In this document: one piece after another, positions 30,172-44,440 of the stretch | Position numbering within the stretch: position 1 is the first letter of the stretch | Layout: the number at the start of each line of letters is the position of its first letter | DNA from: Candidatus Thorarchaeota archaeon | GTDB taxonomy: Archaea > Asgardarchaeota > Thorarchaeia > Thorarchaeales > Thorarchaeaceae | Direction: 5' to 3' | DNA: 64,000 nt | NCBI GenBank assembly: GCA_963726195.1 | Contig: CAVSBO010000007.1 | Coordinates: 62,533-126,532 of the forward strand | Notes under the pieces: model-generated | Told to the model about the DNA's origin: nothing | The model's database searches: none | What the model saw: the letters and a program-made list of their open reading frames with translations, nothing else | Program-made: the position numbers and the translations under genes

Positions 30172-31498
30172 ATGGGTTCCATAACTGCACTCCTCATCCA
30201 GCACAGATACGCGCGCGATCCGGACCTGCTGGGAGAGTTCGAGGCGTTAGCCAAGACGGCAGAATACAACGTAGTTGGAACCTTCGATGTTGTGGGGCCT
30301 TCTTCAGCGCGTTTCGGACTCAGAGGAGGCAAGGTCGAGGAAATAAAAATCTGGATTGAAGCCCAGAAGCCCGACCTTGTGTTCTACTCTCCTAGCCTCA
30401 AATCAAGCCAAATGTACAGGTTGAAGGAAGAATGGAAGACTGAAGTGAGAGATAGGACCCAGCTAATCCTAGAGATATTTGACAAGCACGCAAGAACCCC
30501 TCAGTCCAAACTGCAGATTGAACAGGCAAGGCTGAGCTATGAGCTTCCTTTCGTGCGACACCAGCTGAACGAGCATCTGGACAAAGAACGGTCTGGTCCC
30601 AGACCAGTTGGCCAAGGGATTGGCCCAGGTGAGGACCCCCTCAATCTGAGATTCATGGAGATAAGACATCGCATCGCAACCATCGAGGATAAGCTCGAGA
30701 AGATATCGGACGAGTCCGAACTGAAACGGAAGAGGCGAGTTGACTCGGGTTTTCTTGAGGTCGCTCTTGCTGGCTATACTAATGCGGGCAAGAGCACCCT
30801 TCACCGTGCTTTGACGGGGTCACAAGTGGAGGTTGCAAACGGGCTCTTCACAACGCTCTCTACGAAGTCATCTGACTTAGCGATGGATGGTCGGCAGGTT
30901 GTCCTCACAGACTCTGTGGGTTTCATAAGTGACCTTCCGAAGTCTCTGCTCCGCGCGTTCAACACTACCCTGATGGAGATTGCGGACGCAGACGTCATTC
31001 TTCTTGTTGTGGATGGGTCTGATTCCGTGAGCGAAGTCCGACGAAAGGCAAACGTCTGCCTGGACACGTTCACAAGAATCGGGATCAACGGGATTCCTAT
31101 AATCACTGCGTTGAACAAGGTTGACCTTATTGATGAGGCCGGTATCGAGCAGAGAATCTCCGCACTTGACGGCATCGGCTTGCAGGTAATCCCAGTCTCC
31201 GCAATGAACTATGACCAATCTTCCAGCGTTGATCGGGGTAATTGAGAGCCTGCTCCCGATTCTATCTGTCTATTCAATCGATCTGCCCTATGGCGATTCG
31301 ACTATGTCGCTCATCTCTTGGTTGCATCAGGTTAGTGATGTTCTCAATCAGGAGTTCAAAGAGGATCGCATCGAGATTGAAGCCAAGCTGAGTCTTGATG
31401 TCGCCCAAAAGCTGCTCAAGATGCTTCCACCCGGCGCGATTCGGAAACTGGAACCACAGTCTAACCACGTGCCTCAGCCCAGTAATAGGGACGAATAG
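30172..31498 (+). CDS. hflX: GTPase HflX, frameshift near 31220
   Basis: DRTQLILEIF, GYTNAGKST, LFTTL, DSVGFI, NKVD. Confidence 0.9.
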
Positions 31499-31564: not shown

Positions 31565-32221
31565 ATGATTGCCATGGAACTGAAATCACCGGATGAGATT
31601 CTCCAGATGTTGGAAGGATACGAGAAGATAGTTCTCTTTGGCGATTCAGGTTGCGCTCAGATGTGTGATGTTGGCGGCATACTTCAACTCGAAGACATGG
31701 AAGATTTCCTGCGACAGCACAACAAGCAGGTACTGGGCAAGATATTCGTTGAAGGCGGAATATGTGATGTGAATGCTGTGAAACAGGAAATGGAGAACAA
31801 CAAGGAGATTCTGGATGAGGCCGACGCTTTTCTAATACAAGCCTGCGGCGTGGCCACCCAGAACGTTACCGAACTGATGCCGGAGAAGGAATCTTTTCCA
31901 GCCACTGATTCGAAGTTCCTTGGCACGATGCCACGGCGGTTCGTTCATCAAGAGCGCTGTATCATGTGCGGAGAATGCATACTGGATTTGACCGGCGGTA
32001 TTTGTCCGCTCGCCCGGTGTGCCAAGGGCATTCTAAATGGGCCATGCGGAGGCTCGATGAACGGCAAGTGCGAGAGGGACCCAGAGACCGACTGCGCCTG
32101 GCAGCTGATCTACGACCGACTGAAGAAGCTTGGAAAGCTCGACAAGCTGAAGTCAATCTGGGAGATTAAGGACTGGAGCCTGTCCCAAGGTCCTCATTCG
32201 GTAATCCATGAGGAAGCCTAG
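31565..32221 (+). CDS. metV: MetV-like Fe-S/Zn subunit of methylene-H4folate reductase
   Basis: CIMCGEC, GGICPLARCAKGILNGPCGG...CAW. Confidence 0.85.
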   Translation: MIAMELKSPDEILQMLEGYEKIVLFGDSGCAQMCDVGGILQLEDMEDFLRQHNKQVLGKIFVEGGICDVNAVKQEMENNKEILDEADAFLIQACGVATQNVTELMPEKESFPATDSKFLGTMPRRFVHQERCIMCGECILDLTGGICPLARCAKGILNGPCGGSMNGKCERDPETDCAWQLIYDRLKKLGKLDKLKSIWEIKDWSLSQGPHSVIHEEA

Positions 32222-32338
32222 AAGAATGCTCTCCAACAGTGTCATCCTTCTTGACTGCTGAAGCACCAACTGTGCTGTTCGATTGCTCAACCAAAGGAGA
32301 TATGTGTCAGTCTTCAGACCCGGTCCTTCGACACCAGA

Positions 32339-33284
32339 TTGAAGGACAGCGTACAATCACCCGAAACCAAGCTTAGACGCATGCTTCAAAGTGGCAAGTT
32401 CACTGTCACAGGAGAAGTCGGTCCTCCGCATGGTGCTGACTACAAGCTGGTGACTGAACGGACACGTCTTGTGAAGGACTACTGTGACGCAATCAACATC
32501 ACCGACAATGTTCGCGGCATTCCTACCATGAGCAGTATGGCATGTGCTCATTTCGTGATTGAGGCCGGCGCCGAGCCGGTCATGCAAATGTCTGCCAGAG
32601 ACAGAAATCGTATTCTCTTTGAAAGCGAGCTCTATGGTGCTCATGCACTCGGGATTCGCAACATCCTGTTCGTGACAGGCGATCACACTCTTCTTGGATC
32701 GCATCCTCAAGCAAAGATGGTGTACGACTTAGACTCGATTCAGGCACTCCAACTTGCGAGTCATCTGATGTCGGGAAAGGACTTGGCTGGGGAGGAGCTC
32801 GAGGGCGTGCCGCTTTTCCACCTTGGTGCAACTTTCAATCCGAATGCCGACCCACTCGAACTCCAAGTCTGGCGTGTTGAGAAAAAACGCGATGCAGGGG
32901 CCCAGTTCTTCCAGACTCAGGCCGTCTACGATACTGGCAGGCTCGAGGAGTACATGGAGCAGATTGAGCCATTGGGCGTCAAGGTACTGGCGGGCGTTAT
33001 TCCCCTGAAGGGACCAAAGATGGCTCGCTTCATGAACGAGCGAATTCCCGGCATCAGGATTCCTGAGGAGACAATCAATCGCTCTGGAGTCTGCAGGTGC
33101 CGGCATGAAAGGTGAGGAAAAGAAAGAGGCCGTGCGTGCTGAGGGTATCGGAATTACTTTAGAGATAATCAATCATGTAAAGAAGATTCGTGGAATCAAT
33201 GGTATTCACATTATGGCAATCGGATGGGAAGAGAGCATACCCGAGCTCGTGAAAGCTTCGGGGTTATACCCCCGACCGAAGTGA
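32339..33284 (+). CDS. metF: Methylenetetrahydrofolate reductase MetF, frameshift near 33080
   Basis: TGEVGPP, NITD, RDRNR, TGDH, AGAQFFQTQ; tail ...GIHIMAIGWEE...YPRPK* in the shifted frame. Confidence 0.9.
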
Positions 33285-33295
33285 GGTTGACAAGA

Positions 33296-34213
33296 ATGTT
33301 CGTTTTCAAGAAAGAGCAGCAGGCTTTCGATTTCGGTGGAGTGACAATCGGTGGCCAGCCGGGACAAAACCCTACGGTATTGATCGGCGGCTTGTTCTTT
33401 ACGACACAGCCAATCGTGAAGAGCGCGAAGGAAGGCACGTTTGACAAGGAGATGGCCAAGCAGTGGATTGACACAGCGAAGACGATGGTCGAAAAGACCG
33501 GCCACCCCCTCATCATTCAAGCCTTTGGTCGAACTCCCGAGGCGATGGAGAAACACCTGTCATGGCTCGGGGAGAACTTCGATGGTCCGTTCATGTTCGA
33601 ATCAACAAGTGGTGATGCCCGGAAGAAGGCCATAGAGTACTGCGATGAGACCGGTTTGAGCAAGAGAGCCATATACAATTCAATCAACCTCTCGATGAAG
33701 GACGATGAGAAGCAGTTGCTTCGAGATAGTTCACTGAAGATGGCGGTAGTTCTCGGTTGGTCGCCTAAAGCCACAAGCCTGCCTGACCGCATGGAAACAA
33801 TCCGTTCAATGATTGAAGAGGCCAAGGCCATCGGAATCGAGAAGATGGTTGTCGATCCTGCCACGATGCCGGTCGGAGCCGGGTACGGACTTGAGTATCG
33901 GACCATGCTGGCGATTAAGTCGGAACTCGGGCTGCCCACCTGCTTGGGACCTCACAACGCACCCTCGGCTTGGAAATTCATAAAGCAGACCGGATTGGAC
34001 GACGAGATTACCCAGACCTCAGCGATTGTGGCATCGACCGTCGCAGCCCAGCTGTTCGCCACTGATTGCATAATGTACGGGTCTATGGCGAGGACCAAAC
34101 AGGTGTTCACGGCTACAGCGCTAATCGCAAACGCAATGGCTTCAGCAATAGCAGAGGCACAGCAGGCATTAGGACTCAGTCAGCCGATCTTCGAGCCCCC
34201 ATCTTTCGAATAG
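33296..34213 (+). CDS. mtrH: MtrH-like pterin-binding methyltransferase, copy 1
   Basis: MFVFKKEQ...IGGQPGQNPTVL, RAIYNSIN, HNAPSAW. Confidence 0.85.
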   Translation: MFVFKKEQQAFDFGGVTIGGQPGQNPTVLIGGLFFTTQPIVKSAKEGTFDKEMAKQWIDTAKTMVEKTGHPLIIQAFGRTPEAMEKHLSWLGENFDGPFMFESTSGDARKKAIEYCDETGLSKRAIYNSINLSMKDDEKQLLRDSSLKMAVVLGWSPKATSLPDRMETIRSMIEEAKAIGIEKMVVDPATMPVGAGYGLEYRTMLAIKSELGLPTCLGPHNAPSAWKFIKQTGLDDEITQTSAIVASTVAAQLFATDCIMYGSMARTKQVFTATALIANAMASAIAEAQQALGLSQPIFEPPSFE

Positions 34214-34224
34214 GAGGTCCAGTC

Positions 34225-34920
34225 ATGGCCACGAGTGCGGAGAAGCGGGAATGGCCGCCAATTCCGGGCGACTTCGAAGTGAAGGATCCCAGTTCATGTG
34301 TCGCCATATGCACTCTCGGAAGGAAGATAGAAGTAAACTCGGACTATGCGATAATCGGCACGTGCAAGACAGAGAACATTGGAATAGAACGCATGATTGT
34401 TAACATTGTGTCCAATCCCTGTATCAGGTACCTCATTCTGACAGGGCCCGAGGTTCCCGGTCACAAGACCGGCTCGTCGGTGCGATCTCTTCACCAGAAG
34501 GGAGTCGACAAGGAAACCCGGAAAATAGTCGATGCCGATGGAGCCATCCCTTATGTTGAGAACGTGCCAATTGAGGCGATTGAGCGATTTAGGAGTCAGG
34601 TAGAGCTCATAGACATGATGGACATCACGATGCCCGAGGAGATTGCTCGGGTTGCTCGTGAATTAGCATCAAAGAATCCCGGCCCATATTCGGCTGAGGC
34701 ATTGTGGGTGGAATTCAAGGCAAAACGTGGAAGCGCAGCTCCTAGAGGCTTAGGATCCGCTGTTGCCCTGCTGCCTGAGTATGGTCTCTCTGTGGACCCG
34801 TTTACCTCACTTGTCTCGAAGCTCGACCTCTACGCTCTGGTAACTAGTCACCCATCTACGATAGCGATTGTTGTACGAAGGACCGATACAGGAACAATAC
34901 TTGTCGGAAAGGAGTTGTGA
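34225..34920 (+). CDS. mtrA: Soluble MtrA-like corrinoid protein without membrane anchor
   Basis: WPPIPGDF, GTCKTENIGIE, NPCIRY, GHKTG (Co-ligand His), GAIPYVEN; GGAGG RBS. Confidence 0.9.
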   Translation: MATSAEKREWPPIPGDFEVKDPSSCVAICTLGRKIEVNSDYAIIGTCKTENIGIERMIVNIVSNPCIRYLILTGPEVPGHKTGSSVRSLHQKGVDKETRKIVDADGAIPYVENVPIEAIERFRSQVELIDMMDITMPEEIARVARELASKNPGPYSAEALWVEFKAKRGSAAPRGLGSAVALLPEYGLSVDPFTSLVSKLDLYALVTSHPSTIAIVVRRTDTGTILVGKEL

Positions 34921-34923
34921 GAT

Positions 34924-35859
34924 GTGTTCGCATTTGAGAAGGAGCAGATTGTTCATACCGTTGGTGGAGTCAAGATTGGCGGCGTGCCGGGAGAGATGCC
35001 CACTGTTCTTGCTGGCACCATCTTCTACGGCGGACATGACATAGTTCAGGATGCTCGGAAGGGGCTCTTCGACAAGAGGGCCGCCACAGAGCTGATTGAA
35101 GTACAGGATCAGATGTCGGACACGACTGGCAATCCTGCTTTTGTTCAGGTGTTCTCGGAATCTGAACAGTCGATTATCAAGTACCTCGACTTCGTTGCGG
35201 AAGTCACGGATGCACCCTTCCTCATTGATTCGACCAATGCAGAGGTGCGAATCGCAGGCTTGAGACATGCCCAAGAAGTCGGTCTCTTGGACAGAGCAAT
35301 CTACAATTCGGTAAGCGTGTCCATCACAAAGGACGAACTCGAAGCCCTGAAGGATATTCACCACGATTGTGCAGTCATTCTCGCTTTCAATCCGCATGAC
35401 TCATCGATTGCCGGCCGAAGGGCTGTGCTTGAGGATGGAGTTCCCGGGCTCGACAAGGGCCTGCTAAAGATAAGCGAAGAAGTGGGAATCACGAAGCCTC
35501 TCATTGACACGGCAACAACAGCAATGGGGGCGGGTGCTGGCTCCTCAGCGTCATTCATTTTCGTGGCGAAGACCCTTTACGGCCAACCCACCGGGTCAGG
35601 GATTCATAACGCGCCAAGTTCGTGGTCATGGCTTCGAAAGTATAAGAAGACCAATCCTGAAGCTTATCACGCATGTGATGTTGCTTCTGCCTTGATAGCG
35701 CAGATGATGGGAGCCAATTTCGTTCTTTACGGGCCGATTAGCAATGCAAAGACAGTCTTTCCTGTTGTTGCAATGGCAGACATCTTCGCCGCAGAGTCTT
35801 CAAGTGTCGAGTTCGGTGTCCAGCCTTCTGAGAATCATCCGTTCCGCAAGCTTCTATGA
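34924..35859 (+). CDS. mtrH: MtrH-like pterin-binding methyltransferase, copy 2
   Basis: FEKEQ...IGGVPGEMPTVLAGTIFY, PFLIDST, HNAPSSWSWL, HPFRKLL. Confidence 0.9.
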   Translation: MFAFEKEQIVHTVGGVKIGGVPGEMPTVLAGTIFYGGHDIVQDARKGLFDKRAATELIEVQDQMSDTTGNPAFVQVFSESEQSIIKYLDFVAEVTDAPFLIDSTNAEVRIAGLRHAQEVGLLDRAIYNSVSVSITKDELEALKDIHHDCAVILAFNPHDSSIAGRRAVLEDGVPGLDKGLLKISEEVGITKPLIDTATTAMGAGAGSSASFIFVAKTLYGQPTGSGIHNAPSSWSWLRKYKKTNPEAYHACDVASALIAQMMGANFVLYGPISNAKTVFPVVAMADIFAAESSSVEFGVQPSENHPFRKLL

Positions 35860-35874
35860 TAGGGTGTTCCAACA

Positions 35875-37322
35875 ATGTCACACCGTGCTCGGGTAATCAA
35901 GCCCCGGTCGATAGGAGTAGGGTTCTCTAAGGACCGGCCCCTTCTACACGGTGGCTTCTGTGGAGCTTGGCAACACAACAACAAAGTGCATACTCGTAAG
36001 CACCAATCTCCAACACCGCTGAGATTTTCGAGATTGCGAAACAGGTCCGTTTCACGCGGGATGTCAGACCTCCCAAGCATGGCGAGCTCGTTTTCGGCAG
36101 AACGATTACGGGAGTTGAGCTAACACGAGAATCGGTGTCCGAGCTCATTTCTGACATCCTGATTTCTGTCCTTCACGATGCGCACCTCGACATCAAGAAG
36201 GACCTTCACTTTGTAGTGCGGTCGACTGGTGTAACTGCGGGTTTCGCAAGGCCTTCCGAGGTGGGCGAGATGGTGAAGGCACTCGCCAACGGTTGCATCG
36301 CCGCTGGTGTTCCGCCCCGAAAGATGGCAGCATCGATTTCTCCTGAGAATCTGCCTGAAGATATCAGAGACTTCAGTTGGCTGAAGAAGGTCTATTTTGA
36401 CGGTGCTGTCGCCAGCTCCCTTCCTCCTTCTAGCGCAGAAGTTGTGGCGAATGAGATGGAAGGAGAGCTTGTCACAGCAGGGATCAAAGGAGCAGTCAAA
36501 GGCTCAGACATCGACTTCCGGAACCCTGTGATGGCTCTTGACTTCGGGACAACTCTGGCAGGTAGAGTCACTGACGATTCTTACCCTTATGCAAAAACCA
36601 TAGGCTCGTTCGCCGGGCTCGCAGGTGCAATTCCCGATGCCCTCGCTAGAGGAGGGTCTCCGGACTTGGGGCCAACGGGGTGCCTTCTGGATCTCCGTCT
36701 ACCTGTGTCCGGGCACCGAATCGAAGTTGACTCGAGCTTGATTGAGAAAGCTCGCAGACTGATTCGAGTGGAGCCTGTTTCTTCATCGGACACTCGTTTT
36801 GGCACGGTACCAGTCAATCCTCATGCCGCTGATGAGTCGGGTGTTCTACTCATTGGTGTCGATGTCGGTACCAACGGTTCTCGAATCGCGGATCTCGAGA
36901 TTCTCGGAAGAACAATTGTCAAGGCAGGCGGTCTCGCTACACTGACAGCCGTCGTGGATCAGATACAGACAGATACCGTACAGAGAATAGTCACGCTAGC
37001 CGAACAGAATGGGCTCGTGCTTCACGACACATCGCTAGGCCTCACGGGAAGGGCAATCACCACAGGCGCCAAACCCGACCTGATTGCAGCTGGACTCACT
37101 CTGAACGACGGGTCACTGTGGAATGACTCTCATCAGATGGTCTTTGTAGAAGATGGCTTGGCCATGGGAGCCGCGGTCGCTGCTAGGTGCATGAACTCGA
37201 TGGGTACGCGCGTCAACCCGATGGGAGGAAGAAAGGGAGACAAATGCATAATGCATGAGCGGCACAAGATGCAGAAAAGAAAACGAGTTCATCAAACCGA
37301 AGATGATGACGAGCAGGCATAG
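35875..37322 (+). CDS. Methanogenesis marker protein 14-like (ASKHA fold), frameshifted near the 5' end
   Basis: VASVELGNTTTKCIL in a shifted frame, FVVRSTGVTAGF, NEMEGEL, DFGTTLAGR, ARCMNS. Confidence 0.8.
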
Positions 37323-37417
37323 GAGACGCGACTTTGGTCGGGCTGGCAATTCAGGCGGCATCCGCTTAAGGTGCCTTTATCTTCTGTTCAGTAATCGCGG
37401 CCGCAGGGTTGGTCGCG

Positions 37418-38207
37418 ATGCTCATCATGCCAATCAAGACCCGGGTCATAATTCCGAAGGACGACTACCTCAGTGTCCTGTTTGAAGGTCTTTCGCACGC
37501 GGGATATCGTATCGAAGAAAACGACATCTTGGTGGTGGCTGAGAAACCGCTGGCAACCACAGAAGGTCGGATTGTCAAGTTATCAGACGTCAAAGTCTCT
37601 GCCAAGGCTCGTAGACTGGCACAGAAGTACGACATTGTTCCCGAAGTCGCAGAGCTGGTCGTGCGTGAGTCAGATGAGATTCTTGGCGGTGTCCCTCACG
37701 TGTTGCTCACAGTCAAGAACAACACGCTCATGGCAAGTGCGGGAGTGGACAAATCGAATGTGCCTCCTGGTCATGCATGCTTGCTTCCTGCGGATTCTCG
37801 GGCGAGTGCAGTCCGGCTAAGGGATGAGGTGAAAAAACGTCTGGGCAAGACGATAGGTGTGATGGTTATTGACAGTCGTACTCAACCCTTACGACTTGGG
37901 AATGTTGGATTGGCACTTGGTGTGGCTGGGTTCAGACCTGTACAGGACGATCGGGGAAGAGCGGACCTGTTTGGCAACATACTGAGAATTAAGCGAAGAG
38001 GTATTGCTGACAATCTGGCTTCGGCATGCGAGCTGAATAATCGGTGAGGCGGATGAAGCAGTTCCTGCAGCTCTAGTGCGTGATGCCCCAGTCGAGTTTG
38101 TAGATGACTCCTTCGATTCATCTGAGATGTGGATTAGTCCTCGTGAATGCATGTACATGGCCATCTTCGAGCAGTGGCGTAGAGGAAGGAAGAAACCTGC
38201 GACCTGA
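37418..38207 (+). CDS. cofE: Coenzyme F420-0:L-glutamate ligase CofE-like, frameshift near 38035
   Basis: AGVDKSN, DSRTQPLRLG, DDRGRADLFG; GEADEAVPAALVR in the shifted frame. Confidence 0.85.
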
Positions 38208-38367
38208 GTCTCCGTCATGATTCTGGGCCGTAACACAGAATCAATTGATGATGGCAATCCCTGAGAGACACGGGGCGGGCGTGCTCACTTCATACACGAA
38301 AGTATCAAAAGCGCGGAGCTGGTCTGGTCTTCCTATAGGGCAGACCTTCGACGGGAGATTGAAGTCC

Positions 38368-39736
38368 ATGGCCGGAAACAAGGTGCTTCTTGATGTTGCA
38401 ACGGCAGGAGCATCAGGAGACATGTTTCTCTCGGCCCTCATGGACTTGCTAGGCAAAGACGATTCGCTTCTCCCTGTCGCTGCCAGCCTGCTAATATTCG
38501 ACCCAACTCTTCGCATCCGAGTCACGAATCGAATCCTCCAGAGGGCGCAACGGAAAGCGGCTTGATGTAACCCTTGACGAGAGAGTCCGGTTCACGCCCA
38601 AGTCGCTGATGGAGATTCTTGAGACGGTCTCTGAGGAACTTGAGTTATCCGAGACCGCGAAAGGTTTTGCAAAGAAGGCGTTGACCGAGGTACTGGAGGC
38701 CGAATCTAGGGCACATGACACACCCGTAGACAAGCTCCACCTGCAGGAGCTTGGTACGGTCGACACGATTCTGGATATCGTTGGCACGGCGTACTTGTTA
38801 GAGAAAGCCGAGTTGCTCGGCAAGAGCAAGTTTGTTGCAACGAAGGTAGCCGTCGGCAGCGGGACGATTGAGACGGATCACGGGAAGGTTGAGGTTCCCG
38901 TTCCCGCGGTTGCTGAGATTCTGGTTGCACATGATGTGCCATTTCATAATGGCTCCGCCAAGACTGAAGTTCTCACTCCGACCGGAGCCGCTCTTCTAGT
39001 GACGCTCGCCGATGAGTTTGTGGATTCCTCTGAGGGGTTCGTTGCGAAGAAGATAGGAGTTGGGTTCGGAACACGTGATCTTGGCGACGTTCCGAATGCT
39101 ATGAGAATCATCGTCGGGGAGGAAGTCCCCAAGGCCGAAAAGCCAACCGAAAAGCCCACCAGGAAAATGGTGGAAAAGATACCTGAGAAAGGTATCAAGA
39201 AACCTGTGGAGAGGATTGCTACGACACCCGTCAAAGTTGCCGAGGAGAAGACAGAGAGTTTAGATGCGTGGATGGATGAGGACGTTCTTGTCATAGAGGC
39301 AACAGTAGAAGATATCGATGGAGACATTGCAGGCACGCTCTTTGATGTCCTTGTCTCAGAAGGTCACGCGTACGATGTGATGATGATCCCGGCTTTCTGC
39401 AGGAAGAACAGGCCTTGCTACCTCGTAAAGGTGATTGCTGCGAAGGACGAGCTCAAGAATGTCGCTGAGGTTCTGATCCATCATCTTGGAGCGCCGGGCG
39501 TACGCTACACGACATGGCAGAGGCTAACGGCGGCGAAGGAAACAGTCGTATGCCGACTTGAGTTGGATGGGAAGGAGTTCACGGTGCATGTCAAGGTCTC
39601 GAGAGGCTTGGATGGCAGTATAATAAACATAAGACCGGAGTCCGATGATGTCATCAAAGTATCCCGGGCTACTGGCATTTCTATCAGGGAACTCAAGCCC
39701 CGCATCACACTTCAGGCATGCGAGGTAAGCGAGTGA
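38368..39736 (+). CDS. larC: LarC-like nickel-insertion protein, frameshift near 38540
   Basis: AGASGDMFLSAL, DHGKVEVPVPA, TPTGAA, GFGTRDL...PN, PESDD. Confidence 0.8.
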
Positions 39737-39778: not shown

Positions 39779-42053
39779 TTATCGGGCGGAAACTGAGATC
39801 GGCGTCACTGTTTTGTCTCGATTTTCGGATTTGAGATACTGGACAGGAATTAAACTCTCAAAGGCCCTCATGCAAAGGTTCGCATAGGCCTCAGGATCAT
39901 ATCTTGTTGAGTTATCAAACAGCTCTAGGGCACTGACCCTCCGCATTGGACTCTCTGCATCCGGTTGGACAAGAAGATACCGGACCTTCTGCCCCGCGTG
40001 CAATTCTCTACCTGCCTTGAGGAGCTGCTGTGCCACCAAAGCTGTTCTTGAGACAGCACGATAATTCTGTGGATCGGACGTAAGTCGTGACTGCAGCACA
40101 AGGTCTCTGAGATCCACATCTCCCTGCCGCAGCCTGTCGATGTAACTCTGACACACTGCATAGGCTTCTGGTATCATTTCAATGAAACCTGCCTTGTCGC
40201 GGCCGCGAGCGAAGGTCTTGATCATAGCCTCTTGGCAATCTCCCACGAATAGACAGGTGTCGCGTCTTCTCACTTCAATGCCACGTGTCTTGATTGCTCC
40301 GTTCCTGTATACTCCGTAGTAACGATTCAGTGGGGCGATGCTCGGGTGCAGTCGCGATGAGGGAATTACCATCCATCTGTATATTCCCTTCGCGGACATG
40401 TCGATGTTGACTGCATCAGTGACACGCTTGCAGAACTCGACGACATCCGAGTAGATGATGCCTCCTCTGCACCTGAGCCATACGGAGTCCACAATTCCGT
40501 GGATTAACTCAAGTCCCATCGACTCTCCTATCTCCTGCGTCTTCAACAGTACATCGCGCGCAAGTGCGGTCACTGCCGTGTGCGCCTCGACTCTGCCAAA
40601 CTTCGCATTCTTGAACCCGAGATAACCGAAGCAAGAGACCAGTACGCCCTTCAGTGTGTTCTCCATGAGCCCATACTTCTCTGCCTCGTGTCCCTTTTGC
40701 ACGAGCTTCTTGAACTCTCTACGTTTCTTGACCACCAGTTCAAGTGATTGCGCTACAATTCCCCTTCTCCGGGTGCACAGACGAAAGTTGAGCCCCGGAA
40801 CCTCGATACAGTGCTCGTGGTTGTAGGGGCATTGCTCCCGCATGCAGATTGTCTCGGGACTGATGTTTCGTGTGACCATCAGGGTCGGATACATAGAGGA
40901 AAAGTCGCATTCTGCAATGTTCTCGTAAATGTCTGGTTCCGGTTGAAGGATGAGAACCTCCCCTGTCGATAGCTGAGAGGTCCGTTACTGACTTGAGGAA
41001 TTCGGGATTTCGTTTGATTGGTGGTATCAGGATGCCCATCTTGTGCGCGTTGTAGAACTGAATGGCGGCATTGATACTGCCTATTGACATCCGGGCCGTT
41101 TTCTGAGGCTGAACAAGTGCGAGCCTGCATCCCTCGATTATCCCTGCCATGCCTGAGGGTGAATAATAGAGACTCTCCGACCTGTCGATGTGTATCCTGC
41201 CATTGAACATGACTTGGTTCCCGGCCCTGAAAACCACCTGATTGTACTGCCAGAATGAGCTGGGCTCTCTATAGATTACCCTGAGAGGTGTACCGTCGCG
41301 AGAAAGCACGAGTTCTACTCCATTCATTTTGCAGCGTGTGGTCAAGTATCTGAAAACATCATCGTCGCCGCCTTTCGTGACTATGACATCCGGGTCAATC
41401 CTGTCTATCTCTCTCTGAAGCTGCAGGATGGTCTCCCGCTCATCCTGCTCCCTGATGTTGAGTATCTCACCTCTGTTGGTGAGTTCAATATGATGTATCG
41501 GATCCTCCGGCTTGGGAAAAACGCACTTGGTGTCGATGAAGATGTCCAGACTGACTTCCTCAAGAGGTGGGGTCTCGTATTCAGTGTCTTCGCGTCGTTC
41601 AAGGCACCTGATTTCGGTGACAGAGTCTCCCTTGGCCTCGAATTCAACGCGTCCGAACGGAAAGATATCATTCGAGATGAAGAACTGCTGCACAGGGTCG
41701 ATGTCTGAATGGAACACAACCGCACCCGGCAATCCTTCGAGTTCTCTTGCAACCTCTTCCTGAGCACACAGTCCAACAAATACCTGCAGTACTCGCCTCG
41801 GCTGCTCATCGTAGACGCTGACAAACCTATTGACGATTGTGGCTTTGATTACGTTTGGATGCTCTTGTACCGACTGAATCAGAGACTCCTCAGACCAGTC
41901 AGGGTCATCAAGCAAACTGGTATCGACGAAGAGAGAAGGAAAGAAGTCTCGATATCTGTAGCCATGCGTCTTGCCCTCTACTTTGATCCAGAGGATAAGC
42001 GATTCGTCTTCGCGGTCAACACTGGCGTCGAGTAACCAGCCGTGCAATCTCAT
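39779..42053 (-). CDS. Family B DNA polymerase, archaeal PolB2 group, frameshift near 40950
   Basis: GWLLD N-terminus, DFSSMYP...NISPET, K...FGYLGF, altered motif C HGIVDS, RGIEVRRRD. Confidence 0.85.
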
Positions 42054-42328: not shown

Positions 42329-42643
42329 TGTATTCGCCTCGAGCATGCAATTGACTGAGATGCGGTCTTCGGACTGGCGGTCTCTACTATCACTCATTCG
42401 TCCTGACCTTTGTTGAATGTCTGTGTCGGTTCAAGGGAACAGCGGCGAGGCGGACGGATTGCCGAAAGTAACGCGCTCAAGAATGGCGAAATCTAACTGG
42501 TCTACAACGAGACACCAGCAGCGTCGGGCAGTTTCCTGAGTTGTCACAAGGAACTTTAATAACTCGAAGTAACCTCGTTCCCAGAGTGTGTCTGCAGTCC
42601 GCCAGCTGAAATCACAGGCGGCAGACACGGCGAGTTGGTCAGC

Positions 42644-43228
42644 ATGGTAACAGCACTCTTCAAGGTCGTGCTCATGGGTGACGGCAGTGTAGGCAAAACC
42701 ACACTAAGGAAGGTCTACATGGGCGAGGGCTTTCGTGCCCAGTATATGATAACCATAGGCGCAGACTTCGCTGTGAAGAAGATGCAGCTGGCCGGGGGAC
42801 ATGACGTAAGCATCCAGATCTGGGACTTGGCAGGTCAGGAGCACTTCAAGAGCGTCCGTTCCACCTTCTACAAAGGTGCCCAAGGCGCACTTGCAGTCTA
42901 TTCGACTGTGGAAAGGGCATCGTTTGACAATCTGCCCAACTGGATGAATGAGTGTTGGACCAACGCGGGGAAGAAGATTCCAGTTGTTCTTATTGCAAAC
43001 AAGACAGACCTTAGGGAGCAGTTCAAGAACAATCCCGCCATGAAGCAGACAATTGTAACCACTGCGGAGGGCGAGAAATATGCCCAGACAATCGCTAAGA
43101 GCGGCGTACACTGCTCTTTTCTTGAGACCTCCGCCAAGACCGGAGAGAATGTTGAAGCGGCCTTCTTGGAACTCGCGATAAAGATACTAGAGGCCGGAGG
43201 CATGGTGGAGCCGGGCCGTACGAAATGA
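42644..43228 (+). CDS. Rab-like small GTPase
   Basis: GDGSVGKT, TIGADF, WDLAGQE, NKTD, ETSAK. Confidence 0.9.
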   Translation: MVTALFKVVLMGDGSVGKTTLRKVYMGEGFRAQYMITIGADFAVKKMQLAGGHDVSIQIWDLAGQEHFKSVRSTFYKGAQGALAVYSTVERASFDNLPNWMNECWTNAGKKIPVVLIANKTDLREQFKNNPAMKQTIVTTAEGEKYAQTIAKSGVHCSFLETSAKTGENVEAAFLELAIKILEAGGMVEPGRTK

Positions 43229-43306
43229 CGAGTCTGTCCAGCTGGCTGTATTAATAACACTTTTAGCAGAGCCCGGCGGCGGCTTCGACTTGCCACACAT
43301 CAGTGA

Positions 43307-44440
43307 GTGAAAAACATGGAACAGCAGGAAACGCCTCTTTTCTTGAAACCTCGGACGCTGAGGGCTCCAGCAACAGAAGGTGGTCAGTTCACCCGCAGGC
43401 TGGCGATGAACAAGGTTGGGCGGATGATTGCAGCAGCATTGCAGGACCGCACTATTCGTCTGTTCGATGCTCGTAGCTGTGAAGAGATTCAGAAAATGAC
43501 GGACAGTTTCCTCTGTACATCTATTGCATTCAGTCCTCGTGGGGATGTACTTGCCTCTGGCGGTGTCGATCACATTGTGAAGATATGGGACGTCAGAACG
43601 GGCAAGCTGCTTTCAAAGCTGGAAGGCCACACATACCCCGTGCTGACACTCGCTTTTTCACCTGACGGCAGCCGCTTGGTTTCGGGCTCGGGTGATACGA
43701 CGCTCATAGTCTGGGATCTTGAGAAGCGCTTGAAGCTTCATCAGTTGAAGGGTCATTCGCTGTACGTTGTCACCTGTGATTGGGACCCGAATGGAGACCG
43801 CATCATATCAGGTGGAGTCGACTCGACTGTGAGGGCTTGGGACTCCACGACAGGTGAGATGACAGCCAAGATGGAAGACCACAGAACTGCTGTGCACGCT
43901 GTTCGTTTCTCTCATGACGGGTCTATGCTCGCCTCTGGCTCATCGGACCAGACCATCATCCTCTGGGACGCAGCCAGAGATGGTTTGAAGCTAGAGAACG
44001 TTCTTCAGGGGCACTCCGGAGAGGTCAGGTCCCTTGCATTCAGTGCCGACAACAAGTATCTCGCATCAGGGTCGAGCGAGAAGGAGCTCCTTGTGTGGTC
44101 TATTGAGAAACGTGCGATTGAAGGACGAGGATCTGCTTTTGGTGAGATTGACGGATTAGAATGGTACCCCACTGAGACCGCGTTCCTGTCCTCTGATGGA
44201 TCGGGAGCAATCACACAATGGTCAGTCATGGACCTTGCTGCCATCATGGTGCCACTAGAGTCACTCCTCAAAGAGATTGAAGCTAACACCAAGCACAATC
44301 GCACACAGGAACTGACGCGCAGATTTGAAGAAATGAGGTCTCAATACGACGATGAGATGCTCCGGGACAAGCGGCTCTTTTATGTGGTCTGGCAATGCAA
44401 GAAGGCTCTAGGTCTGCTCAAGGGAACGACAAAGAGCTAG
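43307..44440 (+). CDS. WD40 beta-propeller protein with helical C-terminal tail
   Basis: Repeated GH...WD units, about 7 blades. Confidence 0.9.
   Translation: MKNMEQQETPLFLKPRTLRAPATEGGQFTRRLAMNKVGRMIAAALQDRTIRLFDARSCEEIQKMTDSFLCTSIAFSPRGDVLASGGVDHIVKIWDVRTGKLLSKLEGHTYPVLTLAFSPDGSRLVSGSGDTTLIVWDLEKRLKLHQLKGHSLYVVTCDWDPNGDRIISGGVDSTVRAWDSTTGEMTAKMEDHRTAVHAVRFSHDGSMLASGSSDQTIILWDAARDGLKLENVLQGHSGEVRSLAFSADNKYLASGSSEKELLVWSIEKRAIEGRGSAFGEIDGLEWYPTETAFLSSDGSGAITQWSVMDLAAIMVPLESLLKEIEANTKHNRTQELTRRFEEMRSQYDDEMLRDKRLFYVVWQCKKALGLLKGTTKS

What the first reader, a model, noticed from the sequence alone, without database searches (positions are those of the whole stretch)
31565..39736. Soluble metV-metF-mtrH-mtrA-mtrH-mmp14-cofE-larC cluster: possible methyl shuttle between folate and methanopterin pools
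Seen: a co-oriented run in which one corrinoid protein (MtrA, His retained in GHKTG, no transmembrane tail) sits between two divergent MtrH paralogs, directly after bacterial-type MetVF and before Mmp14, CofE and LarC. No mtrC/D/E or mcr genes are in the window. Known: MtrH moves methyl groups between a pterin and the MtrA cobamide; MetVF makes methyl-H4folate; Mmp14 is uncharacterised and usually found near mtr genes in methanogens. Inference: two MtrH of different specificity sharing one MtrA could transfer methyl groups between H4F and H4MPT (or from a methylated substrate) without Na+ pumping, with ASKHA-fold Mmp14 as an ATP-dependent corrinoid activator or chaperone.
Basis: partly seen in the sequence, partly recalled or inferred. 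Interest (0 to 1): 0.75.

Follow-up and report, generated by a model that had tools for sequence, protein, structure and literature searches.

The report
Soluble Mtr-derived methyl relay operon
This Asgard (Thorarchaeota) archaeon cannot make methane, yet it keeps a membrane-free piece of the methanogens' vitamin-B12 methyl-transfer machine (one cobalt carrier between two unlike methyltransferases, plus a probable ATP-driven helper) fused into one operon with its only folate-type reductase; the gene set is real, family-wide and partly published, but this genome shows almost nothing of the methanopterin side that the proposed folate-methanopterin bridge needs.

Summary
Observation confirmed. 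All nine genes lie where stated in a Thorarchaeota genome with no mtrC/D/E or mcrA. MtrH1-MtrA-MtrH2 precede Mmp14 in 48/48 Thorarchaeota species loci and MetF in 46/47. metV (15/45), cofE and larC are only loosely linked.

MtrH2 is canonical. MtrH1 is a long-stemmed, lineage-restricted paralogue under the same constraint, with an invariant Asp-to-Glu change in the pterin pocket and no basic tail patch. MtrA keeps its cobalt-binding His and carries a small beta-domain in place of the membrane helix. Mmp14 is an ASKHA-fold protein about 50% identical to the methanogen protein.

Interpretation partly supported. Two different sites share one soluble carrier beside MetF. However, this genus lacks Mer, Mtd, acetyl-CoA synthase and RFAP synthase (Ftr was sought, and not found, only in this genome) and keeps only Mch, while the folate branch is universal in the family. 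A folate partner is therefore likely and methanopterin as the second carrier is doubtful.

Adam et al. 2022 published 'canonical MtrAH + m26' for Thorarchaeia. This scan met the operon at least eight times before on other genomes. The window copy has at least seven probable assembly frameshifts.

The parts
31565..32221 (+). metV (DUF5981, Cys-rich partner of MetF). It is an accessory neighbour, not part of the tight operon.
   Evidence: PF12225 118 bits. It is present next to metF in only 15/45 Thorarchaeota loci. Its spacer to metF ranges from -8 to 4812 nt, with transporter genes inserted in G006 and G012.
32339..33284 (+). metF, the only MTHFR-family gene of the genome and the first gene of the tight operon. 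The window copy has a 1-base frame break near 33083.
   Evidence: PF02219. It is single-copy, and in the 17 of 18 family relatives that have it, it lies directly upstream of mtrH1. The orthologue in G003 is 314 aa and intact. The window has an extra C after AATCG compared with G002. The stop is 11 nt before the mtrH1 start.
33296..34213 (+). mtrH1, a divergent MtrH paralogue (305 aa) with a TIM-barrel pterin-methyltransferase fold.
   Evidence: PF02007 248 bits; TIGR01114 243 bits, below its cut-off. The clade has 100/100 support on a stem of 1.1 substitutions per site. It forms one cluster at 50% identity, and the next relative is a canonical MtrH at 37%. Asn129, Asp196 and Asn230 are kept and Asp103 is Glu in all copies; the basic tail patch is lost.
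34225..34920 (+). mtrA, a soluble corrinoid carrier (231 aa). It has a corrinoid domain (1-165), a disordered linker, and a C-terminal beta mini-domain where methanogen MtrA has its membrane helix.
   Evidence: PF04208 185 bits. His80 in GHKTG aligns on His84 of 8Q3V. A GGAGGT ribosome-binding site lies 6 nt upstream of the ATG. No hydrophobic helix was found. AF2 model: pLDDT 85.9, strands at 180-230. It is single-copy in the genome and in 18/18 family genomes.
34924..35859 (+). mtrH2, a canonical-type MtrH (311 aa).
   Evidence: TIGR01114 415 bits, above its 271.4 cut-off. It scores 275 bits against the M. mazei MtrH of PDB 9QTP. It groups with Methanosphaera and Methanosarcina MtrH (88/83). 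All four pterin ligands and the Arg239/Lys242/Lys243 patch are kept.
35875..37322 (+). mmp14 (methanogenesis marker 14 = DUF2114 = m26), an ASKHA-fold putative ATPase. The window copy has two frame breaks (~35920, ~36012).
   Evidence: TIGR03285 462 bits for the window fragment and 581 bits for the intact G003 orthologue. AF2 pTM 0.80. VIA-align Z 19.0 (3cqy), 17.8 (9gai_C), 16.1 (4eht), 13.6 (2d0o). 118 positions are invariant between 58 Thorarchaeota and 18 methanogen sequences, including Cys140, Cys438 and Cys457. The reading frames were checked.
37418..38195 (+). cofE-like F420-0:gamma-glutamyl ligase, a conserved neighbour. The window copy has a frame break near 38036.
   Evidence: PF01996. 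The intact orthologue scores 188.2 bits on TIGR01916 against a cut-off of 180.65. CofD is present elsewhere in the genome, so F420 synthesis is plausible. G016 has cofE-larC inverted away from the mtr block.
38368..39736 (+). larC-like nickel-insertion protein, a conserved neighbour. The window copy has a frame break near 38532-38546.
   Evidence: PF01969, LarC1 and LarC2 models. The orthologue in G003 is a single ORF of 452 aa.

Best explanation
metF-mtrH1-mtrA-mtrH2-mmp14 encodes a membrane-free, two-site corrinoid methyl relay derived from the methanogen Mtr complex.

Proposed mechanism:
- MtrA carries a cobamide on a flexible linker.
- One MtrH moves a methyl group between a methyl-pterin and Co(I)/methyl-Co(III) of MtrA.
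- The other MtrH, whose pterin pocket and tail site are remodelled, does the second half-reaction that membrane-bound MtrE does in methanogens.
- One of the two carriers is the folate pool served by MetF, the reductase translated just upstream.
- The second carrier is another pterin-type molecule: H4MPT in those relatives that have an H4MPT methyl branch, undefined in this genus.
- If the pair is H4MPT and H4F, thermodynamics make the flow one-way, from methyl-H4MPT to H4F.
- Mmp14 is an ATP-using ASKHA protein that keeps or returns the MtrA cobamide in the active Co(I) state, as a reductive activase or chaperone.

Shown here: the gene content, operon structure, conservation, retained catalytic residues, soluble MtrA and the ASKHA fold.
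Inferred: the substrates, the direction of flow, a MtrH1/MtrH2 heterodimer, docking by the MtrA tail, and the role of Mmp14.
For: - Operon: spacers are 0-23 nt across 17 genera, apart from one 94-nt MetF>MtrH1 spacer in G017. The triad lies upstream of Mmp14 in 48/48 Thorarchaeota species loci and MetF in 46/47.
- Both MtrH are constrained alike: mean pairwise identity is 0.657 for MtrH1 and 0.663 for MtrH2 over 49 genomes.
- MtrH1 keeps three of the four pterin ligands named for M. marburgensis MtrH (PMC10998594) and has Glu for Asp103 in every copy. It also has fixed changes in the corrinoid-facing loop (F156W, N157S). Its tail patch has a net charge of -0.8, against +3.1 in MtrH2 and canonical MtrH (patch defined in PMC12774963).
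- MtrA has the His ligand, no membrane helix and a folded beta tail.
- No MtrC/D/E or McrA were found.
- MetF is the only MTHFR gene. No other known consumer of methyl-H4F was found: MetE 0/19 and the homocysteine S-methyltransferase domain 0/19 in the family, and the genome's only PF00809 protein sits beside MptE, as a DHPS-like biosynthetic enzyme would.
- The folate branch is universal in the family: Fhs 19/19, and an Fhs-FolD-FTCD operon in this genome.
- Mmp14 co-occurs exactly with the MtrH1-MtrA-MtrH2 type of MtrA (19/19 in the family plus G027) and is absent from the other Asgard genomes, including those with fused MtrA-like genes. It has an ASKHA fold with invariant phosphate-binding motifs and three invariant Cys.
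- The literature ties it to Mtr by synteny and distribution (PMC4153887; PMC9635834 supplement) and states that the Mtr activase is still uncharacterised (PMC12774963).
Against: - No assay exists, and pterin specificity cannot be read from sequence. H4F-specific MtgA keeps the Asp that MtrH1 changed, so Glu103 is not a folate signature.
- MtrH1 lost the basic patch that would suit either anionic tail.
- This genus shows no RFAP synthase, Mtd, Mer or ACS, and this genome shows no Ftr. A second, H4MPT-type pool is therefore unproven here.
- G016 keeps the module without any MetF.
- Asgard MetF belongs to the group in which a switch to H4MPT has been proposed (PMC9012536).
- The nearest structural neighbours of Mmp14 are generic ASKHA proteins. 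RACo ranks only 23rd and 33rd by Foldseek at TM 0.3. The EutA lead scored only 0.83.
- No complex could be modelled with the tools at hand.
Confidence: 0.4

Rival explanations
1. Catabolic entry of methyl groups into the folate branch. MtrH1 acts as the substrate-side methyltransferase for a still unknown methyl donor. MtrA is the corrinoid protein. MtrH2 passes the methyl to H4F. MetF, FolD and Fhs then oxidise it to formate with one ATP. This would be an archaeal analogue of the bacterial MtgABC and O-demethylase systems, with Mmp14 in the place of RACo/RamA.
For: The folate branch is universal and catabolic in flavour: an Fhs-FolD-FTCD operon and GcvT are present. The module is independent of Mer, Mtd and ACS. 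MtrH-family enzymes can serve H4F, as MtgA does (PDB 6SJ8). MtrH2's basic patch would suit a polyglutamate tail.
Against: No substrate-side enzyme of the MtrH fold is known that uses a non-pterin donor. MtrH1 keeps pterin ligands. The genome already has a classical MtrH3-RACo-corrinoid set for such input. Methyl-H4F oxidation is energetically hard (own knowledge).
Confidence: 0.2
2. MetF is a Mer substitute that works on an H4MPT-type pterin, as proposed for ANME-1. MtrH1 and MtrH2 form a heterodimer that replaces the canonical MtrH homodimer and both load MtrA from the same methyl-pterin. The methyl then leaves MtrA to an unlinked, unidentified acceptor enzyme.
For: Canonical MtrH is a homodimer in the Mtr complex. 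Asgard MetF groups with ANME-1-type MetF (PMC9012536). Bona fide Mer is missing in 9 of 19 family genomes. In other Asgard families MetF lies next to Mer.
Against: MetF co-exists with Mer in 10 genera. RFAP synthase was found in only 1/19. MtrH1 has its own fixed pocket changes and evolves as slowly as MtrH2, which a purely structural partner would not need. No acceptor candidate is linked to the operon.
Confidence: 0.17
3. Anabolic methyl supply. The module makes methyl-cob(III)amide-MtrA from the MetF product for methionine regeneration. The homocysteine-methylating step would be done by MtrH1 or by an unrecognised enzyme.
For: No MetE/core-MetE and no homocysteine S-methyltransferase domain were found in any of 19 family genomes, although the module is universal. 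Archaeal core-MetE is thought to need a methylated corrinoid protein as donor (PMC7005905; PMC9012536).
Against: Most other Asgard genomes sampled, including G019 without MtrA, also lack both families, so the absence does not discriminate. The MtrH fold is not known to bind thiols. No Zn-site motif could be tested. These organisms may simply take up methionine.
Confidence: 0.1
4. The genes are decaying remnants of methanogenesis with no present function, and the frame breaks in the window are real pseudogenisation.
For: Four of the nine genes (metF, mmp14, cofE, larC) are frame-broken in the window. The literature calls the set 'remnants'.
Against: HflX and PolB are broken in the same way, and orthologues in all relatives are intact. 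Order, spacing and sequence are conserved across 62 species-level genomes, with 118 Mmp14 positions invariant out to methanogens.
Confidence: 0.03

Closest known systems
Thorarchaeia 'canonical MtrAH' plus marker m26 (DUF2114), described as methanogenesis remnants (Adam et al. 2022, PMC9635834)
   Same: It is the same lineage and the same genes: MtrA and MtrH without the other subunits, and m26 tied to Mtr by distribution, phylogeny and synteny.
   Different: In the main-text and supplement passages I retrieved by keyword, that paper does not describe the second, divergent MtrH, the operon fusion with MetF, the loss of the MtrA membrane helix, or any mechanism. It says only that the genes 'could act as a methyltransferase'.
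Methanogen MtrABCDEFGH, the N5-methyl-H4MPT:CoM methyltransferase (PDB 8Q3V, 9QTP/9QTS; PMC10998594, PMC12774963)
   Same: MtrA has the same His ligand and corrinoid domain. MtrH2 is about 50% identical to canonical MtrH, with the same pterin ligands and tail patch. Mmp14 is a neighbour of mtr in Methanobacteriales.
   Different: MtrB-G are absent, so there is no CoM methylation site and no Na+ pumping. MtrA is soluble with a beta tail. A second MtrH stands where the second half-reaction is needed.
Three-component corrinoid methyltransferase systems with an activase (MtgABC of Desulfitobacterium, Mto of Methermicoccus, RACo/RamA)
   Same: The logic is the same: methyltransferase 1, corrinoid protein, methyltransferase 2 and an ATP-dependent ASKHA activase. 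MtgA belongs to the MtrH family.
   Different: The carrier here is MtrA-type, not the B12-binding Rossmann domain type (PF02310). Both methyltransferases are MtrH paralogues. Mmp14 matches no RACo Pfam model and has no ferredoxin domain. The genome has a separate classical set of MtrH3, RACo and a corrinoid protein.
MtrA-like, MtrH and MtrAH fusion proteins of Atabeyarchaeia and Freyarchaeia (PMC11291895)
   Same: These are also non-methanogenic Asgard archaea with soluble Mtr-derived methyltransferases of unknown role.
   Different: Those are fused or divergent MtrA-like forms. The Asgard genomes here that carry fused or long MtrA-like ORFs (G024, G030) have no Mmp14. No MetF-MtrH1-MtrA-MtrH2 operon is described there.
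ANME-1 / Syntrophoarchaeum-type MetFV, proposed as a Mer substitute (PMC9012536)
   Same: It is an archaeal MetF with MetV, reported to group with Asgard sequences, in genomes where Mer may be missing.
   Different: Here MetF co-exists with Mer in half of the genera, MetV is often absent, and MetF is translationally coupled to an MtrH. I did not build a MetF tree.

Membership tests
MtrH, canonical (TIGR01114 equivalog) - MtrH2 | Score above the curated equivalog cut-off (271.4 bits) | tested here: met
   415 bits; 275 bits against M. mazei MtrH of 9QTP.
MtrH, canonical - MtrH2 | Four pterin ligands (Asp102, Asn128, Asp195, Asn229 in M. marburgensis numbering) and the basic tail patch Arg239/Lys242/Lys243 | tested here: met
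   All are conserved in 57 MtrH2 sequences. Net charge of segment 236-250 is +3.1, the same as canonical MtrH.
MtrH, canonical - MtrH2 | Part of a membrane MtrA-H complex, docked on MtrB | tested here: not met
   MtrE was not found in 31 genomes. MtrC and MtrD were not found in this genome. MtrB was not searched.
MtrH, canonical - MtrH2 | Uses methyl-H4MPT as substrate | not testable with these tools
   This needs an enzyme assay. RFAP synthase, Mer, Mtd and Ftr were not found in this genome.
MtrH superfamily (PF02007) - MtrH1 | Pfam gathering score and TIM-barrel pterin-methyltransferase core | tested here: met
   248 bits against a cut-off of 22.8. It aligns over residues 1-281 with 9QTP MtrH.
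MtrH, canonical (TIGR01114) - MtrH1 | Equivalog cut-off, invariant Asp102 and the basic tail patch | tested here: not met
   243 bits is below 271.4. Glu replaces Asp in 100% of copies, and the patch charge is -0.8. It forms a separate clade on a stem of 1.1 substitutions per site.
MtgA (methylcorrinoid:H4F methyltransferase, NF047990) - MtrH1 | Equivalog cut-off of 550 bits | tested here: not met
   167 bits. It falls in the MtrH-proper clade, apart from the large sister clade that holds bacterial and Bathyarchaeota sequences and MtrH3. MtgA itself was not included in the tree.
MtrA (PF04208 / TIGR01111) | Corrinoid-binding domain with the His ligand (His84) | tested here: met
   PF04208 185 bits. 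His is invariant in 54 sequences and aligns with 8Q3V/5LAA.
MtrA (TIGR01111 equivalog) | Full-length match including the C-terminal membrane helix (cut-off 249 bits) | tested here: not met
   179.6 bits, with the match ending at model position 172/238. Maximum hydropathy is 1.08. The model shows a beta mini-domain instead.
Methanogenesis marker 14 (TIGR03285 / PF09887) | Score above the cut-off (274 bits) over the full length | tested here: met
   581 bits for the intact G003 orthologue and 462 bits for the window fragment. It is 48-52% identical to methanogen proteins.
ASKHA ATPase superfamily - Mmp14 | Two RNase-H-like lobes with conserved phosphate-binding motifs | tested here: met
   Z 19.0-13.6 to many ASKHA chains covering residues 21-459. 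The ELGNTTTK, DFGTTLAG and GxTGR motifs are invariant. ATP hydrolysis itself is not testable here.
RACo/RamA reductive activases - Mmp14 | RACo_C_ter (PF14574) and RACo middle domains plus an Fe-S ferredoxin domain | tested here: not met
   Mmp14 matched only PF09887 in Pfam. The true RACo-type protein of this genome matches PF14574 at 273 bits. RACo appears only at Foldseek ranks 23 and 33 with TM about 0.3. This lowers the claim 'is a RACo', not the claim 'works like one'.
MTHFR (PF02219) - MetF | Pfam gathering score; NAD(P)H-type equivalog cut-offs | tested here: inconclusive
   PF02219 is met (121 bits for the intact orthologue). TIGR00676 and TIGR00677 score far below their cut-offs, and the best model is the MTHFR half of PRK08645 at 220 bits against 453. 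The pterin and the electron donor are unknown.
CofE (TIGR01916) | Equivalog cut-off of 180.65 bits | tested here: met
   188.2 bits for the intact G003 orthologue. The frame-broken window copy scores 151 bits.

The most novel reading that the evidence does not exclude
The operon is a natural minimal Mtr: a self-contained soluble machine in which MtrA swings between two specialised MtrH sites to move methyl groups between two one-carbon carriers without a membrane. Mmp14 would then be the long-sought ATP-dependent activase or chaperone of the MtrA cobamide, and the same protein would serve the Mtr complex of all CO2-reducing methanogens. Because Thorarchaeota keep Mmp14 with only MtrA and MtrH, its partner must be the corrinoid half of Mtr and not the membrane half.
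Probability: 0.3. Interest if true: 0.7.

Novelty: new variant of a known kind. Interest (0 to 1): 0.55.

Why it matters
Mtr is the only energy-conserving step shared by the methanogenic pathways, and how its cobamide is kept reduced is still unknown (PMC12774963). A soluble four-protein version, found in an uncultured Asgard lineage and expressible in E. coli, would give a simple system for two tests: the MtrA-MtrH half-reactions, and whether marker protein 14 is the activase.

For Asgard physiology it would settle what the one MTHFR of Thorarchaeota feeds, and whether these organisms link, drain or replace a methanopterin pool. That bears on models of their one-carbon and acetogenic metabolism.

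The value is limited because part of the gene set is published, the substrates remain inferred, and this scan has met the operon repeatedly.

Tried and rejected
- First homologue search with MtrH1. All 120 listed hits were Thorarchaeota at 69% identity or more, so it gave no outgroups. The search of 50% representatives was needed.
- Paper search with 'Mmp14' returned only human matrix metalloproteinase papers.
- Liu et al. 2018 on Thorarchaeota is not held in the library.
- Sequence search of Mmp14 against PDB found nothing.
- The protein-atlas lead to EutA, a B12-enzyme reactivase, scored 0.83. That is a lead only and was not confirmed: EutJ and DdrA appear among many ASKHA hits without standing out.
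- I considered that the 438-aa ORF after the third MtrH set was a substrate methyltransferase. It is NurA-like and belongs to a HerA-NurA-Mre11-Rad50 operon.
- I considered that genes inserted between metV and metF might name MetF's redox partner. They are peptide-type solute-binding proteins.
- I looked for a correlation of MetV or MetF type with Mer. None is clean. MetV-less MetF goes with ACS in 4 of the 5 ACS-bearing genera sampled, which is too few to use.
- I considered that the MtrH1-specific His87, Glu103 and Cys225 form a zinc site for a thiol acceptor. From their positions in the barrel it looks unlikely.
- Origin of MtrH1 as a recent duplicate of MtrH2. The tree leaves its position inside the MtrH-proper clade unresolved. 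No AU test was run.
- Co-folding MtrH1-MtrA-MtrH2 with or without Mmp14 is not possible with the single-chain tool.

Full report
**What is there.**
The window lies in a 2.9-Mb, 19-contig Thorarchaeota (Asgard) genome that is 88.9% complete.
- MetV (DUF5981), 31565-32221
- MetF (MTHFR), 32339-33284
- a divergent MtrH, here called MtrH1, 33296-34213
- MtrA, 34225-34920
- a canonical MtrH, here called MtrH2, 34924-35859
- Mmp14 (DUF2114/TIGR03285), 35875-37322
- a CofE homologue, 37418-38195
- LarC, about 38368-39736

The flanks are housekeeping genes: archaeosine TGT and HflX upstream, PolB and a Ras-family GTPase downstream.

MtrA reads EVPGHKTG at the position of the cobalt-ligand His84 of the M. 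marburgensis protein. It has a GGAGGT ribosome-binding site 6 nt before its ATG and no hydrophobic helix, with a maximum 19-residue hydropathy of 1.08.

MtrE was found in none of 31 genomes, this one and 30 relatives. MtrC, MtrD and McrA were not found in this genome.

**Quality of the window copy.**
Intact orthologues in relatives are longer than the window ORFs: MetF 314 aa, Mmp14 478 aa, CofE 270 aa and LarC 452 aa in G003. tblastn and frame translations show one-base frame breaks in several window genes:
- MetF near 33083, an extra C after AATCG compared with the same-genus genome G002
- Mmp14 near 35920 and near 36012
- CofE near 38036
- LarC near 38532-38546
- the essential neighbours HflX and PolB

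Seven breaks in 12 kb that also hit housekeeping genes, with intact orthologues everywhere else, point to assembly error, not gene decay. MetV, MtrH1, MtrA and MtrH2 are intact.

**What belongs together.**
In 20-kb loci of 18 genera of the same family, the whole stretch from TGT to Ras is syntenic. Synteny alone therefore says little, but spacing does. MetF>MtrH1 is 2-12 nt in 15 of 16 genera (94 nt in G017, where MtrH1 looks frame-broken), MtrH1>MtrA 0-23 nt, MtrA>MtrH2 0-6 nt and MtrH2>Mmp14 9-17 nt. By contrast, Mmp14>CofE is mostly 24-87 nt, CofE>LarC is 72-256 nt, and MetV>MetF ranges from -8 to 4812 nt. In two genera, peptide-type solute-binding genes are inserted between metV and metF.

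One genome (G016) has rearranged the region. It keeps MtrH1-MtrA-MtrH2-Mmp14 as a block while cofE-larC are inverted and MetVF are gone from the genome.

A scan of species-representative genomes returned 62 Thorarchaeota loci. Where the contig reaches far enough, MtrH1-MtrA-MtrH2 precede Mmp14 in 48/48, MetF is present in 46/47, and MetV in only 15/45. A more distant Asgard genome (G027) also has MtrH1-MtrA-MtrH2 on a short contig and Mmp14 elsewhere.

The unit is therefore metF-mtrH1-mtrA-mtrH2-mmp14. metV, cofE and larC are neighbours.

**The two MtrH proteins.**
MtrH2 exceeds the MtrH equivalog cut-off (415 bits) and scores 275 bits against M. mazei MtrH. In a careful tree it is sister to Methanosphaera and Methanosarcina MtrH with support 88/83.

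MtrH1 falls below the equivalog cut-off. In a search of 1.8 billion 50%-identity representatives, its clade is one full-length cluster plus fragments, and the next hit is a canonical MtrH at 37% identity. In the tree it is a 100/100 clade on a stem of 1.1 substitutions per site. It lies inside the well-supported MtrH-proper clade (100/98), but its exact position there is unresolved.

MtrH1 is not decaying. Among 49 genomes the mean pairwise identity is 0.657 for MtrH1 and 0.663 for MtrH2.

Four pterin ligands were proposed for M. marburgensis MtrH: Asp102, Asn128, Asp195 and Asn229 (PMC10998594). MtrH2 keeps all four. MtrH1 keeps the two Asn and Asp195 but has Glu for Asp102 in every sequence. 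Further changes are fixed in MtrH1. They include F156W and N157S, in the loop that contacts MtrA and its corrinoid in the published model. They also include Y35F, Y87H, G225C, P275S and H310P.

The basic patch Arg239/Lys242/Lys243 has been suggested to hold the anionic tail of H4MPT (PMC12774963). MtrH2 keeps it, with a net charge of +3.1 over residues 236-250, the same as methanogen MtrH. MtrH1 has lost it, at -0.8.

MtrH1 therefore looks like an active pterin-type methyltransferase with a remodelled site, which argues against a dead partner. What it binds cannot be told. H4F-specific MtgA keeps the Asp, so the Glu is not a folate mark.

**MtrA.**
MtrA is single-copy here and in all 18 family relatives. 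An AlphaFold2 model built on 54 orthologues (pLDDT 85.9) shows three parts: the corrinoid domain (1-165), a disordered linker (166-174), and a five- to six-stranded beta mini-domain (177-231) where methanogen MtrA has its membrane helix.

In the Mtr complex, MtrH is a homodimer joined through its C-terminal helices and held by N-terminal beta strands of MtrB. A MtrH1/MtrH2 heterodimer with the MtrA tail in MtrB's place is an attractive reading, and earlier reports of this scan also proposed self-tethering. I could not model complexes, so this remains inference.

**Mmp14.**
The literature already links this marker (m26 = DUF2114 = arCOG04866) to Mtr by distribution and synteny, explicitly including Thorarchaeia (PMC4153887; PMC9635834 supplement). 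Among 31 Asgard genomes it occurs exactly where the MtrH1-MtrA-MtrH2 type of MtrA occurs: 19/19 in the family plus G027. It is absent from genomes with fused MtrA-like genes. In Methanobacteriales it lies 2.6-3.5 kb downstream of mtrH.

Thorarchaeota and methanogen proteins are 48-52% identical and share 118 invariant positions. These include the ASKHA phosphate-binding motifs (ELGNTTTK, DFGTTLAG, GxTGR) and Cys140, Cys438 and Cys457.

The AlphaFold2 model (pTM 0.80) is a clear ASKHA fold:
- Z 19.0 to 3cqy
- Z 17.8 to the ATPase subunit of a benzoyl-CoA reductase
- Z 16.1 to a dehydratase activator
- Z 13.6 to the diol-dehydratase reactivase DdrA

RACo appears lower in the Foldseek list. Mmp14 matches no RACo Pfam model and has no ferredoxin domain, so it is not a RACo. 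It could still work like one or like the electron-activating ATPases, and the three invariant cysteines are candidates for a metal cluster.

The M. mazei Mtr paper states that the reductive activase of Mtr is still uncharacterised. Thorarchaeota retain Mmp14 with only MtrA and MtrH, which narrows its partner to the corrinoid half of Mtr.

**Which one-carbon pools exist.**
The folate side is solid:
- Fhs is present in 19/19 family genomes.
- This genome has an Fhs-FolD-FTCD operon and GcvT.
- There is one MTHFR per genome in 18/19, always beside MtrH1.

No other known user of methyl-H4F was found. MetE is 0/19 and the homocysteine S-methyltransferase domain is 0/19. The only PF00809 protein sits next to MptE, as a DHPS-like biosynthetic enzyme would. 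This makes an MtrH the likely user or maker of methyl-H4F.

The methanopterin side is thin:
- Mch is in every genome.
- Bona fide Mer is in 10/19 and in none of the four genomes of this genus.
- Mtd is in 10/19 and in none of this genus.
- Ftr was not found here.
- Acetyl-CoA synthase (CdhC) is in 5/19 and in none of this genus; CdhD was not found here.
- RFAP synthase, the committed step of methanopterin synthesis, is in 1/19, although most other Asgard families sampled have it.

Only one family genome (G008) combines Mtd, Mer and ACS. Because Mer and Mtd occur without RFAP synthase, that absence may hide an unknown route. Even so, the module's constant companion is the folate branch, not an H4MPT methyl branch. 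F420 synthesis is plausible (CofD present), so CofE is probably an ordinary F420 ligase.

**Reading.**
The best-supported mechanism is a soluble two-site corrinoid methyl relay:
1. One MtrH exchanges a methyl group between methyl-H4F, the MetF product or substrate, and the MtrA cobamide.
2. The other MtrH performs the second half-reaction with another pterin-type carrier.
3. Mmp14 maintains Co(I).

Standard free energies are also relevant (my own knowledge of Thauer's and Maden's compilations, not a tool result). The methylene/methyl couple is about -200 mV on H4F against -390 mV on H4MPT, and acetyl-CoA synthesis is about 40 kJ/mol more exergonic from methyl-H4MPT. Together these put methyl-H4MPT about 40 kJ/mol above methyl-H4F. 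That gap is larger than the -30 kJ/mol of the Mtr reaction itself. A soluble link would therefore be a one-way drain into folate, not a reversible shuttle.

The rivals are:
- a catabolic entry route for an unknown methyl donor into the ATP-yielding folate branch
- an ANME-1-like MetF acting on an H4MPT-type pterin, with a MtrH1/MtrH2 heterodimer loading MtrA for an unlinked acceptor
- methyl supply for methionine regeneration in a family without a recognisable methionine synthase
- non-functional remnants, which the conservation data reject

**Comparison and novelty.**
Adam et al. 2022 reported 'canonical MtrAH' and m26 in Thorarchaeia as methanogenesis remnants. Valentin-Alvarado et al. 2024 reported other soluble MtrA-like, MtrH and MtrAH forms in other Asgard classes.

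I did not find the following in the papers searched:
- the second, re-tooled MtrH
- its fixed pocket changes
- the translational coupling to the only MetF
- the beta-domain tail of MtrA
- the ASKHA model of Mmp14 with cysteines invariant out to methanogens

This is a new variant of a known kind. This scan has already met and followed up the same operon at least eight times on other Thorarchaeota genomes with similar verdicts. One of those notes prompted my RFAP-synthase test.

**Limits.**
- All functional statements are inferences from sequence, models and gene distribution in incomplete MAGs.
- I built no MetF tree.

Noticed in passing
window 31203-31217, ~33083, ~35920, ~36012, ~38036, 38532-38546, 40740-40894: At least seven one-base frame breaks relative to intact orthologues, in HflX, MetF, Mmp14 (two), CofE, LarC and PolB. 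All lie beside AATC-containing words, none in long homopolymers. This looks like a systematic assembly or base-calling error, perhaps at a methylated motif. The genome also contains runs of T(1531) and A(135).
   Followed up: partly
G000 contig C13:77986-81400 (locus L040:9969-13358): A third MtrH (the MtrH-family subfamily model NF002142 scores 289 bits, just above its cut-off; nearest relative is from Bathyarchaeota) lies with an AcsV/RACo-type activase carrying a 2Fe-2S domain and an MtgC/MtbC-like corrinoid protein. This is a classical methyltransferase set with no substrate-side enzyme beside it. The next genes are NurA-HerA-Mre11-Rad50.
   Followed up: partly
G000 contig C5:145966-150160 (locus L122:2970-7163): An Fhs-FolD-formiminotransferase/cyclodeaminase operon lies next to a RuBisCO-like gene. 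This points to folate-dependent histidine and one-carbon catabolism with ATP gain at Fhs.
   Followed up: no
19 genomes of the family (G000-G018): No MetE/core-MetE and no homocysteine S-methyltransferase domain were found in any of them. Either these archaea need external methionine or they use an unrecognised methionine synthase.
   Followed up: partly
19 genomes of the family (G000-G018): RFAP synthase, the committed step of methanopterin synthesis, was found only in G010, although Mch is in all and Mer and Mtd are each in 10. Either there is an unknown route to the cofactor or these enzymes use another pterin.
   Followed up: no
G024 C1:293682-298560; G025 C1:19800-21918; G030 C1:901602-906315: In three other Asgard families, MetF lies within 1-4 kb of a bona fide Mer, a different pairing from the MetF-MtrH1 coupling of Thorarchaeota.
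   Followed up: no
family genomes G005, G008, G010, G017 versus the rest: Two MetF types occur in the family: one with MetV (63-94% identical to the G003 orthologue of the window's MetF) and one without MetV nearby (48-57%). Four of the five genomes with acetyl-CoA synthase carry the MetV-less type.
   Followed up: partly
window 42635-44440: A Ras-family small GTPase is followed by a WD40 beta-propeller protein. Both are eukaryote-like signature proteins typical of Asgard archaea, and the Ras gene is syntenic across the family.
   Followed up: no
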